IMG/VR virus record: IMGVR_UViG_3300020043_000861
Location: 1-24,215 of that record
Strand: one strand, 5' to 3'
Length of the DNA: 24,215 nucleotides
DNA from: a virus
Lineage: Duplodnaviria; Caudoviricetes
In this document: positions 19,891-21,323 of the stretch, one piece after another
Numbering within the stretch: the first letter of the stretch is position 1
Layout: the number at the start of each line of letters is the position of its first letter
Notes under the pieces: generated by a model
Told to the model about the DNA's origin: nothing
Database searches by the model: none
What the model saw: the letters and a program-made list of their open reading frames with translations, nothing else
Program-made: the position numbers and the translations under genes

Positions 19891-19968
19891 TTTTAGTTAG
19901 CTAAATTAAGATGAATTATGGAAAACAGATCGATGGAGAAAGGTGGTATATCCACCCTTGGAGAACCT

Positions 19969-20340
19969 ATGCCTGAATTATTTGAATCAGGGTTTGAAAG
20001 ATTCTGGAAAGCATGGCCCTCATCAACAAGAAAGGGTGCGAAGTCAGAATGTAAAAAGAAATGGGAAAAGCATTACTGCGAAACCCAAACCGACCAGATC
20101 ATCAAACACATTGAATGGTTAAAGACCACAGAGCAATGGCTTAAAGGCAATGGTGCTTTTATTCCCGCCCCGTTGGTCTATCTCAACCAACAACGATGGG
20201 ATGGCGCAGAAGTGCCTGAGATGAAGCCCAAACCCACAATAGACCCCGCCTTGGCAAAGATCGAAGCTGACCGCAAAAAGGCTTCACCCATGCCTGAATA
20301 CATAAGGCTAAAAATCGCACAAATGAAAGGTAGGTTATGA
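19969..20340 (+). CDS. Replication-initiator C-terminal-domain-like protein (no N-terminal HTH)
   Basis: FERFWKAWP...RKGAK..C.KKW...FIP.P..YLNQ.RW matches the C-terminal domain pattern of phage replisome organisers. GGAG SD before ATG 19969; alternative starts at 19918 and 19933. Confidence 0.72.
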   Translation: MPELFESGFERFWKAWPSSTRKGAKSECKKKWEKHYCETQTDQIIKHIEWLKTTEQWLKGNGAFIPAPLVYLNQQRWDGAEVPEMKPKPTIDPALAKIEADRKKASPMPEYIRLKIAQMKGRL

Positions 20341-21323
20341 ATGAGTTGGCTCTTTTCGCAGGCGCTGGTGGAGGAATACTTGGTGGACACCTCCTTGGTT
20401 GGAGAACAGTCTGTGCAGTCGAATGGGAGCAATACCCAGCAAGCGTACTGTGCGCCCGACAAAATGACGGGCTTCTCCCGCCTTTCCCGATTTGGGATGA
20501 TGTACAAACCTTTGACGGAAAACCTTGGAGACAAATTGTTGATGTTGTATCTGGAGGATTTCCTTGCCAAGATATCTCTGCCGCAGGAAAAGGTGTCGGA
20601 ATCGATGGAGAGCGAAGCGGGATGTGGGGAGAAATGGCGAGGATCATTCACGAAGTACGACCCAAGTTCGTATTCGTGGAAAACTCACCAATGCTCACTT
20701 CTAGGGGACTTGGACGAGTTCTTGGAGATTTGGCCTCAATGGGGTTTGATGCGAGATGGGGAGTGTTGGGAGCAGCGGACGTTGGAGCAAACCATCAGAG
20801 GGACAGAATCTGGATTGTCGCCAAATGGCATGGACAGTTTTCACACGCCCAACACAACAGGATTAGACGGTGGGAGCAACAGCAGAAAAGCCTTAAAAAA
20901 ACGTATGGAAAAATGGCCAACACCAGCGACCAAGGGTTATGGTCATGCGGCAGAGGGGATGGTGGGCAATCTGATCGAGAAAATAGAACAAGGTGTGATA
21001 ACCAAATTGGAAGCCGAGCAGATGTTGAGTTTGCCCAAATTGGAAAACCACAGGACTTGGAAAAAGAAATTTCCGACACCGCAAGCCTCAGACAACAGGG
21101 ACAGGGGCAACATGAGCAACTCAGTAGTTCAAAGACGAGTAGCGATAGGCAAGCAAATTTTATTAAGCCAATCGGTTCATCCGACTTCTGGACAACTGAA
21201 CCCAACGTGGGTCGAGTGGTTGATGGGTTGGCCTCTCGAATGGACAGACTTAAAGCCATTGGTAATGGACAAGTCCCTCTCTGTGCAGCAACAGCCTGGA
21301 GAATCCTAAGTGAATCACTATGA
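20337..21323 (+). CDS. DNA (cytosine-5)-methyltransferase, catalytic (alpha-like) chain
   Basis: Motif I LFAGAGG, motif IV GGFPCQD (20553), motif VI ENS (20679), motif VIII HQRDRIW (20793), motif X RLKAIGNG (21246). No clear motif IX in this frame. Confidence 0.9.
   Translation: MNELALFAGAGGGILGGHLLGWRTVCAVEWEQYPASVLCARQNDGLLPPFPIWDDVQTFDGKPWRQIVDVVSGGFPCQDISAAGKGVGIDGERSGMWGEMARIIHEVRPKFVFVENSPMLTSRGLGRVLGDLASMGFDARWGVLGAADVGANHQRDRIWIVAKWHGQFSHAQHNRIRRWEQQQKSLKKTYGKMANTSDQGLWSCGRGDGGQSDRENRTRCDNQIGSRADVEFAQIGKPQDLEKEISDTASLRQQGQGQHEQLSSSKTSSDRQANFIKPIGSSDFWTTEPNVGRVVDGLASRMDRLKAIGNGQVPLCAATAWRILSESL
20341..21309 (+). CDS. Nested +1-frame ORF, putative methyltransferase second (beta-like) chain
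   Basis: 322 codons without a stop, wholly inside the MTase gene. Contains FHTP/WPTP/FPTP repeats and LNPTWVEWLMGWP.EWTD, a motif IX-like block of phage C5-MTases. Confidence 0.72.
   Translation: MSWLFSQALVEEYLVDTSLVGEQSVQSNGSNTQQAYCAPDKMTGFSRLSRFGMMYKPLTENLGDKLLMLYLEDFLAKISLPQEKVSESMESEAGCGEKWRGSFTKYDPSSYSWKTHQCSLLGDLDEFLEIWPQWGLMRDGECWEQRTLEQTIRGTESGLSPNGMDSFHTPNTTGLDGGSNSRKALKKRMEKWPTPATKGYGHAAEGMVGNLIEKIEQGVITKLEAEQMLSLPKLENHRTWKKKFPTPQASDNRDRGNMSNSVVQRRVAIGKQILLSQSVHPTSGQLNPTWVEWLMGWPLEWTDLKPLVMDKSLSVQQQPGES

What the first reader, a model, noticed from the sequence alone, without database searches (positions are those of the whole stretch)
20337..21323. DNA methyltransferase coded in two frames over its full length: a putative nested two-chain enzyme
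Seen: two same-strand ORFs of 328 and 322 codons overlap almost completely. Frame A carries C5-MTase motifs I, IV, VI, VIII and X, but only low-complexity sequence where the target recognition domain and motif IX should be. Over that same DNA, frame B reads as folded protein, with xPTP repeats (20839, 20914, 21070) and LNPTWVEWLMGWP (21196-21234), a motif IX-like block. Established: M.EcoHK31I needs an alpha chain plus a beta chain carrying motif IX, encoded in an alternative frame inside the alpha gene. Inference: this is an orphan phage version in which the second chain spans nearly the whole gene and probably supplies target recognition. Gene callers would report only one chain.
Basis: partly seen in the sequence, partly recalled or inferred. 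Interest (0 to 1): 0.88.

Follow-up and report, generated by a model that had tools for sequence, protein, structure and literature searches.

The report
Two-frame, two-chain phage cytosine methyltransferase
One stretch of phage DNA is open in two reading frames offset by one base, and comparison with about 150 relatives shows both are kept by selection; they most likely give two proteins, predicted to assemble into one DNA cytosine methylase, a layout proven so far only for the E. coli enzyme M.EcoHK31I.

Summary
In detail: window 20337-21323 (frame A, 328 aa) and 20341-21309 (frame B = A+1, 322 aa) overlap almost fully. It is not chance. In 75 non-identical relatives found with B and 78 found with A's catalytic half alone, purifying selection runs A (motifs I-VIII), then B (xPTP target-recognition region and motif IX), then A (motif X). 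The unselected stretches still stay stop-free: B's 5' half in 78 of 78, A's middle in 71 of 75. Synonymous shuffles expect 2-4 stops there. B's own ATG is preserved: Asn-2 of A is AAT in 74 of 74, and all 75 scorable loci keep ATG. Where motif X has moved into frame B (L020, L073, L123), frame A acquires stops in the middle. Best reading (0.72): two chains from start codons 4 nt apart, A the catalytic large domain and B the recognition small domain. Published M.EcoHK31I primers show the same frame offset and the same handover point right after motif VIII. No protein-level evidence exists; the complex predictor was unavailable and the single-chain folds were weak. A double ribosomal frameshift giving one chain is the main rival (0.12). 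This scan found the same family on six other genomes. I class it as a new variant of a known kind.

The parts
20337..21323 (+). Frame A ORF (chain A, 328 aa): catalytic large domain, unselected linker, motif X
   Evidence: PF00145 on residues 4-205; M.HhaI alignment over 4-162.
20341..21309 (+). Frame B ORF (chain B, 322 aa): unselected leader, then xPTP recognition region and motif IX
   Evidence: phrog_1008 on residues 66-304 (E 1.8e-26); 7654 relatives among 8000 scored candidates.
20326..20343 (+). Shared start region AAAGGTAGGTTATGAATG: purine-rich SD-like stretch, A's ATG (20337), the upstream ORF's TGA stop (20338-20340), B's ATG (20341)
   Evidence: sequence. B's start is kept in all 75 scorable loci: A codon 2 is AAT in 74 and TAT in 1, both giving ATG in frame B; CGT in 2 further loci gives GTG. 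The SD assignment is by inspection.
19918..20340 (+). Upstream ORF (replication-initiation-like C-terminal domain), in frame B; its stop abuts B's ATG and overlaps A's ATG (ATGA), which would allow translational coupling
   Evidence: phrog_9474 E 2.2e-14. Coupling is inferred.
20337..20822 (+). Stretch under purifying selection in frame A (motifs I-VIII, A residues 1-162); frame B here is only kept stop-free
   Evidence: Variation peaks at A's third codon position. Mean pairwise aa identity is 0.85 in A and 0.63 in B. 56% of differences are synonymous in A and 19% in B.
20839..21261 (+). Stretch under purifying selection in frame B (B residues 167-307: FHTP, WPTP, FPTP and LNPTWVEWLMGWPLEWTDLKPL); frame A here is only kept stop-free
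   Evidence: Variation peaks at B's third position. A is open in 71 of 75 loci against 3.7 stops expected.
21196..21261 (+). Truly dual-coded block: B reads motif IX (LNPTWVEWLMGWPLEWTDLKPL), A reads EPNVGRVVDGLASRMDRLKAI leading into motif X
   Evidence: Low diversity in all three codon phases at B codons 290-311. Identity is 0.70 in A and 0.84 in B. In L020, L029, L073 and L131 the block is duplicated on either side of an insert, each copy keeping one reading.
21189..21323 (+). C-terminal selected part of chain A (WTTEPNVGRV...RLKAIGNGQVPLCAATAWRIL, motif X) plus stop
   Evidence: Selection returns to A's phase from B codon about 308. Tail identity is 0.80 in A and 0.50 in B.
20823..20838 (+). 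Junction 1: the handover from A-selected to B-selected coding, variable in sequence and length among relatives
   Evidence: All three phases are variable at B codons 161-166. Spacing from the end of motif VIII to the first [TS]P in B is 2-35 codons, and a homopolymer of 5 or more occurs in only 16 of 143 loci.

Best explanation
This phage gene most likely makes two polypeptides from start codons four bases apart in frames offset by +1, and the two are predicted to assemble into one orphan DNA cytosine-5 methyltransferase. Chain A (20337-21323) would carry the AdoMet-binding and catalytic large domain (motifs I, IV, VI, VIII). It would then run through about 120 residues of unconstrained linker to reach motif X, which completes that domain. 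Chain B (20341-21309) would begin with about 160 unconstrained residues, the out-of-frame reading of A's catalytic domain. It would then carry the xPTP-repeat target-recognition region and motif IX, which together form the small, DNA-reading domain. Shown here: both frames are open; selection alternates A, B, A; the unselected stretches are kept stop-free; B's start codon is conserved. Inferred: both chains are translated, they bind each other, and the enzyme methylates the phage's DNA, presumably to escape host restriction. The sequence specificity is unknown.
For: (1) Selection pattern. On 75 non-identical genes, variation sits at A's third position over B codons 1-160, at B's third position over about 167-305, and at A's again from about 308. 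Amino-acid identities and synonymous fractions agree.
(2) Stop-free upkeep of the unselected frame. B has 0 stops over A codons 3-155 in 78 of 78 loci found with A's catalytic half only; shuffles give a mean of 2.27 stops and median P(open) 0.04. A has 0 stops across B's selected middle in 71 of 75 loci found with B; shuffles give a mean of 3.7 stops and median P(open) 0.005.
(3) B's start. A's Asn-2 is AAT in 74 of 74, while other Asn codons in the same half run 135 AAC to 54 AAT. The variants TAT and CGT still give ATG or GTG in frame B. At the other NAY+G sites the T-ending share ranges from 4/74 to 42/47. Where A starts upstream, GGAG or AAGGAG sits 7-9 nt before B's ATG (by inspection).
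(4) Natural experiment. In L020, L029, L073, L131 and L123 motif X lies in frame B. Frame A then has stops in the middle in three of the five (L073 six, L020 one, L123 several), while B stays open from its 5' ATG to motif X.
(5) No conserved slippery site at junction 1.
(6) Precedent. M.EcoHK31I needs alpha plus beta, with beta encoded in another frame inside alpha (PMC2836561 and PMC3404938, passages read). Its published primers show alpha = beta-1, the same offset as here, and alpha's PQRRRRVY (motif VIII) overlaps beta residues about 55-64. Beta lacking 67 residues still works, and activity drops between deletions of 69 and 70 residues. That is the same handover point as here.
(7) Breadth. 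All 7 annotated phages from 6 host genera plus an E. coli prophage keep both frames. 5418 representative clusters match B's selected half.
Against: There is no protein-level evidence: no peptides, no ribosome profiling, no activity assay.
The complex predictor was unavailable.
The single-chain AlphaFold models are of low confidence (mean pLDDT 51.9 for B and 49.2 for A). Even the known catalytic fold scored poorly, so low pLDDT in the leader and linker says little.
The model requires translating about 160 plus 120 codons of unselected sequence, which looks wasteful.
Some loci break its rule. L120 and L127 share a TAA in A four codons after motif VIII although motif X is still in frame A. L007 and L055 have stray stops in A's middle or end.
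In 56 of 143 loci B's PTP follows A's motif VIII within 2 codons, which is just what a frameshift-fused chain would also need.
Pfam and NCBIfam give no match for B, so 'motif IX' and 'TRD' rest on motif inspection, position and the M.EcoHK31I analogy.
Confidence: 0.72

Rival explanations
1. A single polypeptide with the ordinary motif order (I-VIII, TRD, IX, X) would be made by ribosomes that shift +1 just after motif VIII and -1 between motifs IX and X. Only the first shift would be needed in the L123 and L020-type variants. The full-length A and B products would be by-products.
For: The selected segments in the order A, B, A reproduce the canonical C5-methyltransferase order.
In 56 of 143 loci the handover is seamless, within 2 codons.
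The block around junction 2 (TGGACAGACTTAAAGCCATTGG) is conserved in all three phases and could hide a signal.
L120, L127 and L055 have stops in A's middle yet keep motif X in frame A.
L123 shows that TRD, IX and X work in one frame.
Against: Nothing in this model needs B's 5' half open (78 of 78), B's ATG conserved (75 of 75 scorable loci) or A's middle open (71 of 75).
Junction 1 has no conserved slippery motif, stop or rare codon, and varies from 2 to 35 codons in length.
C_TTA_AAG at junction 2 is not a canonical X_XXY_YYZ heptamer (my inspection; recalled rule). Its conservation is explained by dual coding, since the block splits into two single-reading copies in L020-type loci.
A's middle acquires stops once motif X leaves frame A.
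M.EcoHK31I is shown experimentally to work as two separately expressed chains.
Confidence: 0.12
2. Two chains are made, but B would be translated mainly from an internal start near its selected part (for example Met136/137 of B), as with the internal Met17/Met26 starts of M.EcoHK31I beta. The 5' ATG and open leader would then serve something else, such as coupling or mRNA protection.
For: A codons 137 and 138 prefer T-ending codons (42 of 47 and 45 of 65), which give Met-Met in B.
M.EcoHK31I beta starts internally and tolerates loss of 67 N-terminal residues.
B's leader is not under amino-acid selection.
Against: The preference at 137/138 is far from the 75 of 75 seen at codon 2.
An internal start would not need 130 or more stop-free codons upstream, yet these are present in 78 of 78 loci.
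In the L006-type starts, B's N-terminal M-[SAT]-W-L-x-S-x-x-L is kept with different codons while A varies, which points to use of the 5' start.
Confidence: 0.08
3. Only one frame is functional and the second open frame is a by-product of composition, an assembly error or a decaying gene.
For: Databases annotate only one frame per record.
B has no Pfam or NCBIfam match.
The window is a metagenome-derived viral contig.
Against: Each frame is under purifying selection in its own segment.
Shuffles reject composition as the cause.
The third frame is full of stops.
The layout recurs in cultured phages and complete bacterial genomes.
Confidence: 0.03

Closest known systems
M.EcoHK31I (E. coli HK31, YGGCCR), two-polypeptide C5-methyltransferase (Lee, Kam and Shaw 1995, not readable here; described in PMC2836561 and PMC3404938)
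   Same: Beta is encoded in another frame inside the alpha gene, and both chains are needed for activity (passages).
Alpha carries motifs I-VIII and X; beta carries motif IX.
From the published primers, alpha = beta-1, the same one-base offset as A and B here. Alpha's motif VIII (PQRRRRVY) overlaps beta residues about 55-64, and the essential part of beta begins at about residue 67-69, right after it. This is the same handover point.
   Different: Beta starts internally (MQNSS; plasmid name C23 suggests about 23 kDa), whereas here B starts 4 nt after A and spans the whole gene.
Alpha's N-terminus is MKKKPLKQ, not MNELALF.
M.EcoHK31I belongs to a restriction-modification system (recalled), while this is an orphan phage gene.
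The literature places the 'predicted TRD' in alpha; here the selected recognition region is in B, and I infer that the same may hold for M.EcoHK31I.
Sequence homology could not be tested, because the beta sequence figure is an image.
M.AquI (CYCGRG), two-subunit C5-methyltransferase (Karreman and de Waard 1990, as described in PMC3404938)
   Same: It is a natural split of a C5-methyltransferase within the variable region. The variants L123 and L020/L029/L073/L131 have this partition: A carries I-VIII, B carries TRD-IX-X.
   Different: In the window itself motif X stays with the catalytic chain, so the split follows structural domains rather than a single cut. The two genes also overlap over their full length, not just at a junction.
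Ordinary monomeric C5-methyltransferases (M.HhaI, M.HaeIII; Pfam PF00145)
   Same: The catalytic half of A aligns to M.HhaI 15-170 (E 2.4e-13). The order of selected segments equals the canonical motif order.
   Different: No single frame holds the whole enzyme. Among the best 150 representatives matching B's selected half, none is a clean single-frame enzyme; 6 carry partial PF00145 matches and read as frame chimeras or rearrangements.
Programmed ribosomal frameshift genes (dnaX, prfB, IS3 transposases; recalled)
   Same: Functional parts lie in two frames of one mRNA.
   Different: Those genes have a conserved shift site and the zero frame ends soon after it. Here junction 1 is unconserved and both frames stay open end to end.

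Membership tests
DNA cytosine-5 methyltransferase (PF00145) | AdoMet-binding motif I (FxGxG) and catalytic motif IV (PCQ with the nucleophilic Cys) | tested here: met
   Frame A reads FAGAGGG at 7-13 and GFPCQ at 74-78. PF00145 E 3.6e-33. Alignment to M.HhaI 15-170.
DNA cytosine-5 methyltransferase (PF00145) | Motifs VI (ENV) and VIII (QxRxR) | tested here: met
   Frame A reads ENS at 115-117 and QRDRIW at 154-159, both inside the M.HhaI alignment. These positions are invariant or nearly so in alignment A1.
DNA cytosine-5 methyltransferase (PF00145) | Target recognition domain plus motif IX between VIII and X in the same chain | tested here: not met
   Frame A has only unselected sequence there. 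The selected xPTP region and LNPTWVEWLMGWP lie in frame B. No Pfam or NCBIfam match for B; naming this block motif IX is by inspection.
DNA cytosine-5 methyltransferase (PF00145) | Motif X (GN..V.) at the C-terminus | tested here: met
   Frame A reads GNGQVP at 309-314. G309, N310, Q312 and V313 are invariant in 62 sequences, and selection is in A's phase.
M.EcoHK31I-type two-polypeptide methyltransferase with nested frames | The second chain is encoded in an alternative frame within the gene of the first | tested here: met
   B = A+1 and is co-extensive with A. The offset is the same in M.EcoHK31I according to its primers.
M.EcoHK31I-type two-polypeptide methyltransferase with nested frames | Alpha carries I-VIII and X; beta carries IX; the essential beta part starts just after alpha's motif VIII | tested here: met
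   The selection phases run A, B, A, with the handover at B codons 161-167. For M.EcoHK31I.
M.EcoHK31I-type two-polypeptide methyltransferase with nested frames | Both polypeptides are made and both are required for methylation | not testable with these tools
   Only indirect support exists: stop-free upkeep and the conserved B start. The complex predictor was unavailable.
M.EcoHK31I-type two-polypeptide methyltransferase with nested frames | Sequence homology to M.EcoHK31I alpha and beta | not tested
The 1995 paper is not held and the supplement figure is an image.
Programmed ribosomal frameshift gene | A conserved slippery site at the frame junction | tested here: not met
   Junction 1 is variable in all three phases and in length (2-35 codons), and a homopolymer of 5 or more occurs in 16 of 143 loci. 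Junction 2 is conserved but is not a canonical heptamer (inspection).
Programmed ribosomal frameshift gene | The zero frame terminates shortly after the shift site | tested here: not met
   A continues open for about 125 codons to its own motif X in 71 of 75 loci.

The most novel reading that the evidence does not exclude
A very large phage gene family (thousands of clusters) encodes one enzyme as two same-strand genes overlapping over their entire length. Nearly half of each protein would be an obligatorily translated but sequence-unconstrained spacer, kept only free of stops. This would be the most extensive conserved same-strand dual coding known in prokaryotic viruses. It would also imply that the recognition domain of the textbook case M.EcoHK31I sits in beta, not in alpha as the literature predicts.
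Probability: 0.6. Interest if true: 0.85.

Novelty: new variant of a known kind. Interest (0 to 1): 0.78.

Why it matters
If both chains are made, thousands of phage and prophage 'DNA cytosine methyltransferase' and 'hypothetical protein' annotations each describe only half of an enzyme. The half that would read the DNA target is the one most often left unnamed. Specificity prediction, REBASE-style cataloguing and anti-restriction studies would all miss the recognition subunit.

The family is also a natural, replicated example of long same-strand overlapping genes. Selection acts on amino acids in one frame and only on 'no stops' in the other, which makes it a clean system for studying how overlapping coding evolves and what gene callers lose.

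Because the split follows the large and small domains, it offers natural heterodimeric methyltransferase scaffolds of the kind already engineered from M.EcoHK31I for targeted methylation (PMC2836561).

Tried and rejected
Complex prediction of A with B(150-322): the queue was full, searches came before the retry opened, and I was told not to retry. Nothing was folded.

AlphaFold2 of B alone (mean pLDDT 51.9) and A alone (mean pLDDT 49.2). Both are of low confidence with shallow alignments of 65 and 62 sequences. Even A's known fold at residues 1-60 scored 27-43, so I draw nothing about disorder of the leader or linker.

VIA-align wide search with the B model: best Z 4.5, only helical hairpins, no methyltransferase. 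This is meaningless for a model of this confidence.

phmmer of B against PDB sequences: one chance-level hit (E 0.31).

Pfam on L020's and L123's long B chains, which include motif X: no match.

Search for ordinary single-frame relatives: Pfam on the best 150 of 5418 representative hits gave 6 partial PF00145 matches, all chimeras or rearrangements. Relatives ranked below 150 were not examined.

Literature searches: 'EcoHK31I' gave 7 papers. 'cytosine methyltransferase' + 'overlapping reading frames' + 'phage' gave 0. 'methyltransferase / two polypeptides / AquI' is. 'overlapping genes / DNA methyltransferase / bacteriophage / alternative frame' gave 43 papers, of which 12 were listed and none describes this family by title or abstract. 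The GeneTack paper PMC3711429 mentions only other methyltransferases (passages). The 1995 M.EcoHK31I paper (PMC306636) is not held.

Sequencing runs: no run holds more than 0.39 of the sampled words, and RNA runs hold 0.11 or less. I laid no reads, so nothing can be said on expression or on RNA-level slippage.

I considered a test of hydropathy of the unselected stretches against shuffles. I dropped it because synonymous shuffles preserve the relevant composition.
Full report
OBSERVATION

The window is an entire metagenome-derived viral record of 24,215 bases. It carries phage structural genes, a recombination module (exonuclease and a Sak-like annealing protein), a replication-initiation-like ORF, RusA and NinB.

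At 20337-21323 and 20341-21309 two same-strand ORFs of 328 and 322 codons overlap almost completely, offset by one base. Frame A matches PF00145 over residues 4-205 (E 3.6e-33), phrog_363 and M.HhaI 15-170. By inspection it reads motifs I, IV, VI, VIII and X, with a Q/K/R/S-rich stretch between VIII and X.

Frame B has no Pfam, NCBIfam or PDB-sequence match. It does match phrog_1008, labelled 'DNA methyltransferase' (E 1.8e-26). The upstream ORF (19918-20340) lies in frame B. Its TGA overlaps A's ATG (ATGA) and directly precedes B's ATG.

THE LAYOUT IS CONSERVED

B has 7654 relatives with E <= 1e-3 among 8000 scored candidates. The 120 listed show 59-96% identity, and none has a precomputed Pfam domain.

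All 7 annotated phage relatives that I opened keep both frames open end to end, although the length of the middle differs. They are a spring-water phage, Salmonella phage S9-5, Acinetobacter phage ABMM1, a Pseudomonas Detrevirus, Vibrio phage ZQ26, Ralstonia phage Gerry and Microcystis phage Mel-JY01. An E. coli prophage does the same. Of these 8 records, 6 annotate frame A and 2 annotate frame B as 'hypothetical protein'.

I collected two sets of loci. The first was 80 viral contigs found with B as query, so in that set only A's state is an independent observation. The second was 80 prokaryotic genome contigs found with A's residues 1-165 as query, where B's state is independent. The second set holds prophages in Proteobacteria, Verrucomicrobiota, Planctomycetota, Cyanobacteria, Chloroflexota, Bacteroidota and others, going by the record titles.

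WHICH FRAME IS SELECTED WHERE

I built a B-guided codon alignment of 75 non-identical genes: the window, 7 annotated phages and 67 viral loci.

| Region (B codons) | Phase where diversity peaks |
|---|---|
| 1-160 | A's third position |
| about 167-305 | B's third position |
| about 308 to the end | A's third position |

| Region | Identity in A | Identity in B | Synonymous in A | Synonymous in B |
|---|---|---|---|---|
| 5' half | 0.85 | 0.63 | 0.56 | 0.19 |
| Middle | 0.18 | 0.30 | 0.19 | 0.28 |
| IX/pre-X block | 0.70 | 0.84 | 0.24 | 0.51 |
| Tail | 0.80 | 0.50 | 0.52 | 0.18 |

Identity is mean pairwise amino-acid identity; the synonymous columns give the share of nucleotide differences that are synonymous in each frame. 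The selected 'virtual protein' therefore runs A(I-VIII), then B(TRD + IX), then A(X), which is the canonical order of a C5-methyltransferase.

Junction 1 (B codons 161-166) varies in all three phases. Its length ranges from 2 to 35 codons, and only 16 of 143 loci have a homopolymer of 5 or more there. B codons 290-311 are conserved in all three phases, which indicates real dual constraint.

THE UNSELECTED STRETCHES ARE KEPT OPEN

Shuffling synonymous codons within each gene keeps the same protein and the same codon usage.

| Test | Set | Expected stops | Median P(open) | Observed open |
|---|---|---|---|---|
| B over A's half | A-ascertained | 2.27 | 0.04 | 78 of 78 |
| B over A's half | B-ascertained | 2.84 | 0.015 | 75 of 75 |
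| A over B's selected middle | B-ascertained | 3.7 | 0.005 | 71 of 75 |

The third frame carries 7.6-8.6 stops per half. The loci are related, so these are not independent trials. However, the sets span about 65-95% nucleotide identity, and the variable sites are exactly those that would create stops.

B'S START CODON IS SELECTED

B's ATG is made from A's Asn-2 and Glu-3 codons (AAT GAG). Asn-2 is AAT in 74 of 74 loci, whereas other Asn codons in the same half are 135 AAC to 54 AAT. The non-Asn variants TAT and CGT still give ATG or GTG in frame B.

Among all NAY+G sites in A's half, the T-ending share is 75 of 75 at codon 2. At the other sites it ranges from 4/74 to 42/47.

Where A starts a few codons upstream, a GGAG or AAGGAG sits 7-9 nt before B's ATG. 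In six loci with an 8-codon 5' extension, B still begins M-[SAT]-W-L-x-S-x-x-L using different codons while A varies (by inspection).

NATURAL EXPERIMENTS

In L020, L029, L073 and L131 an insert lies between motif IX and motif X. For L020, L029 and L073 I read its length as 1 modulo 3. The insert carries an HNH endonuclease ORF in the third frame (phrog_1271, E 5.7e-10 for L020; no Pfam match).

The dual-coded block is duplicated on either side of the insert. The upstream copy keeps B's reading and the downstream copy keeps A's reading, which is now in frame B. B then holds leader, TRD, IX, insert and X in one frame of 409-501 aa. In L123 the same partition exists without an insert.

In three of these five loci, A has stops in the middle: six in L073, one in L020 and several in L123. 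B stays open from its 5' ATG in all five. A's middle therefore seems to be kept open only when it must lead to motif X.

RESULTS AGAINST THE SIMPLE RULE

- L120 and L127 share a TAA in A four codons after motif VIII, while motif X is still in frame A.
- L007 and L055 have stray stops in A, and L042 and L117 have a stop inside A's catalytic half.
- L096, L133 and L161 look like single-base indels, two of them at G-runs.
- L114 is truncated.
- Of 76 complete A-ascertained loci, 63 are strictly co-terminal with B's ATG at +4. By my reading, four more are open in both frames but lack the upstream stop.

MECHANISM

The most economical reading is two chains initiated 4 nt apart. A would be the large domain, whose linker loops past the region that encodes the small domain. 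B would be a leader followed by the small domain. Shared or adjacent initiation signals, plus coupling to the upstream ORF's stop, would give co-expression; this last part is inferred.

The main rival is a +1/-1 double frameshift. It explains the segment order, but it does not explain the open leader, the open linker, the conserved B start or the unconserved junction 1.

STRUCTURE-BASED TESTS WERE INCONCLUSIVE

- The complex predictor was unavailable.
- The single-chain AlphaFold models were of low confidence.
- The fold search returned nothing useful.

COMPARISON WITH KNOWN SYSTEMS

From passages in PMC2836561 and PMC3404938:

- M.EcoHK31I consists of alpha (motifs I-VIII, X and a 'predicted TRD') and beta (motif IX).
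- Beta is encoded wholly in another frame inside alpha, and both are required.
- Separately expressed alpha and beta complement each other.
- Beta lacking 67 residues still methylates, and activity drops between deletions of 69 and 70 residues.

Supplement 1 of PMC2836561 names the plasmids M38 and C23 and lists primers. Translating three primers one by one shows that the beta-1 frame reads GTPQRRRRVY, which is alpha's motif VIII, over beta residues about 55-64. The enzyme of record therefore has the same one-base offset and the same handover point as this family. I infer that its true recognition region may also lie in beta.

The differences are that beta starts internally and that alpha's N-terminus is unrelated (MKKKPLKQ). 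M.AquI resembles the L123 and L020-type variants.

No clean single-frame enzyme appeared among the best 150 of 5418 representative clusters matching B's selected half. Six had partial PF00145 matches and read as chimeras: two switch at a G-run after motif IV and the others are rearranged.

My four literature searches found no description of this whole-gene two-frame family. The 1995 paper itself could not be read.

EARLIER SCAN NOTES

The scan met this family on six other genomes, and follow-up agents reached the same reading. I used these notes as leads only; every count above is from my own calls.

New relative to what those summaries say:
- the motif-X relocation natural experiment;
- the site-by-site start-codon test;
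- the primer-based demonstration that M.EcoHK31I shares the offset and the handover point.

VERDICT

The mechanism is two chains at about 0.72. I class it as a new variant of a known kind (M.EcoHK31I-type), with high interest, because the family is huge, systematically half-annotated and an unusually clean case of full-length same-strand dual coding.

Noticed in passing
L020:2063-2413 (+, third frame); also L029, L073, L131: An HNH endonuclease ORF (phrog_1271, E 5.7e-10 in L020) sits in an insert between motifs IX and X of the methyltransferase gene. The dual-coded block is duplicated on both sides of it. Frame B reads straight through the endonuclease gene in another frame to reach motif X. 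The fully conserved dual-coded block would make a good homing site.
   Followed up: partly
L123:1505-2671 (+): A Spirochaetia-MAG prophage variant has TRD, motif IX and motif X all in frame B (389 aa) without any insert. Frame A has many stops after motif VIII. This is an M.AquI-like partition that still has the full 5' overlap.
   Followed up: partly
L120 and L127, four codons after motif VIII of frame A: Two non-identical loci share the same TAA in frame A (..ANAT*T..), with an ATG five codons later, while motif X remains in frame A. This could be a three-piece enzyme, a shared nonsense mutation or support for the frameshift rival. It is unexplained.
   Followed up: no
L096 (after motif VIII), L161 (motif I G-run), proteins P0136 and P0186 (G-run after motif IV): Single-base register changes at G-runs put both chains out of frame. 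An earlier scan note (e1-6241317) reads such a tract as a phase switch. The window's own gene has no long G-run.
   Followed up: partly
L006, L007, L011, L026, L039, L078 (5' ends): These loci have an eight-codon 5' extension. In it frame B keeps M-[SAT]-W-L-x-S-x-x-L with different codons (for example Ser TCA against AGT, Leu TTA/CTG), while frame A varies (MVNQQSL, MADKQQF). This hints at protein-level selection on B's extreme N-terminus.
   Followed up: partly
window 20895-20901: A run of seven A's lies inside B's selected region, reading Lys-Lys in both frames. It is a possible slippage site; its conservation was not measured.
   Followed up: no
A codons 137-138 (window 20745-20750) across L088-L167: T-ending codons are preferred here (42 of 47 and 45 of 65), which gives Met-Met at B 136/137. 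These are candidate internal starts for a shorter B, as with Met17/Met26 of M.EcoHK31I beta.
   Followed up: partly
protein P0217 (387 aa): This B-type protein has a weak LAGLIDADG_1 match (E 2e-4, residues 76-159) upstream of its motif IX region. It may be a second kind of homing endonuclease associated with this gene family.
   Followed up: no
L002:1500 and L169:600: In Salmonella phage S9-5 and the E. coli PT62 prophage, frame A starts with GTG while frame B starts with ATG four bases later. B may therefore be the better-initiated chain there.
   Followed up: no
L105, about 140 nt upstream of the gene: A duplicated gene start (MNELALFAE / MSWLFSRRL) lies upstream of the main gene. Frame B stays open from the upstream copy across the intervening 137 nt.
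   Followed up: no
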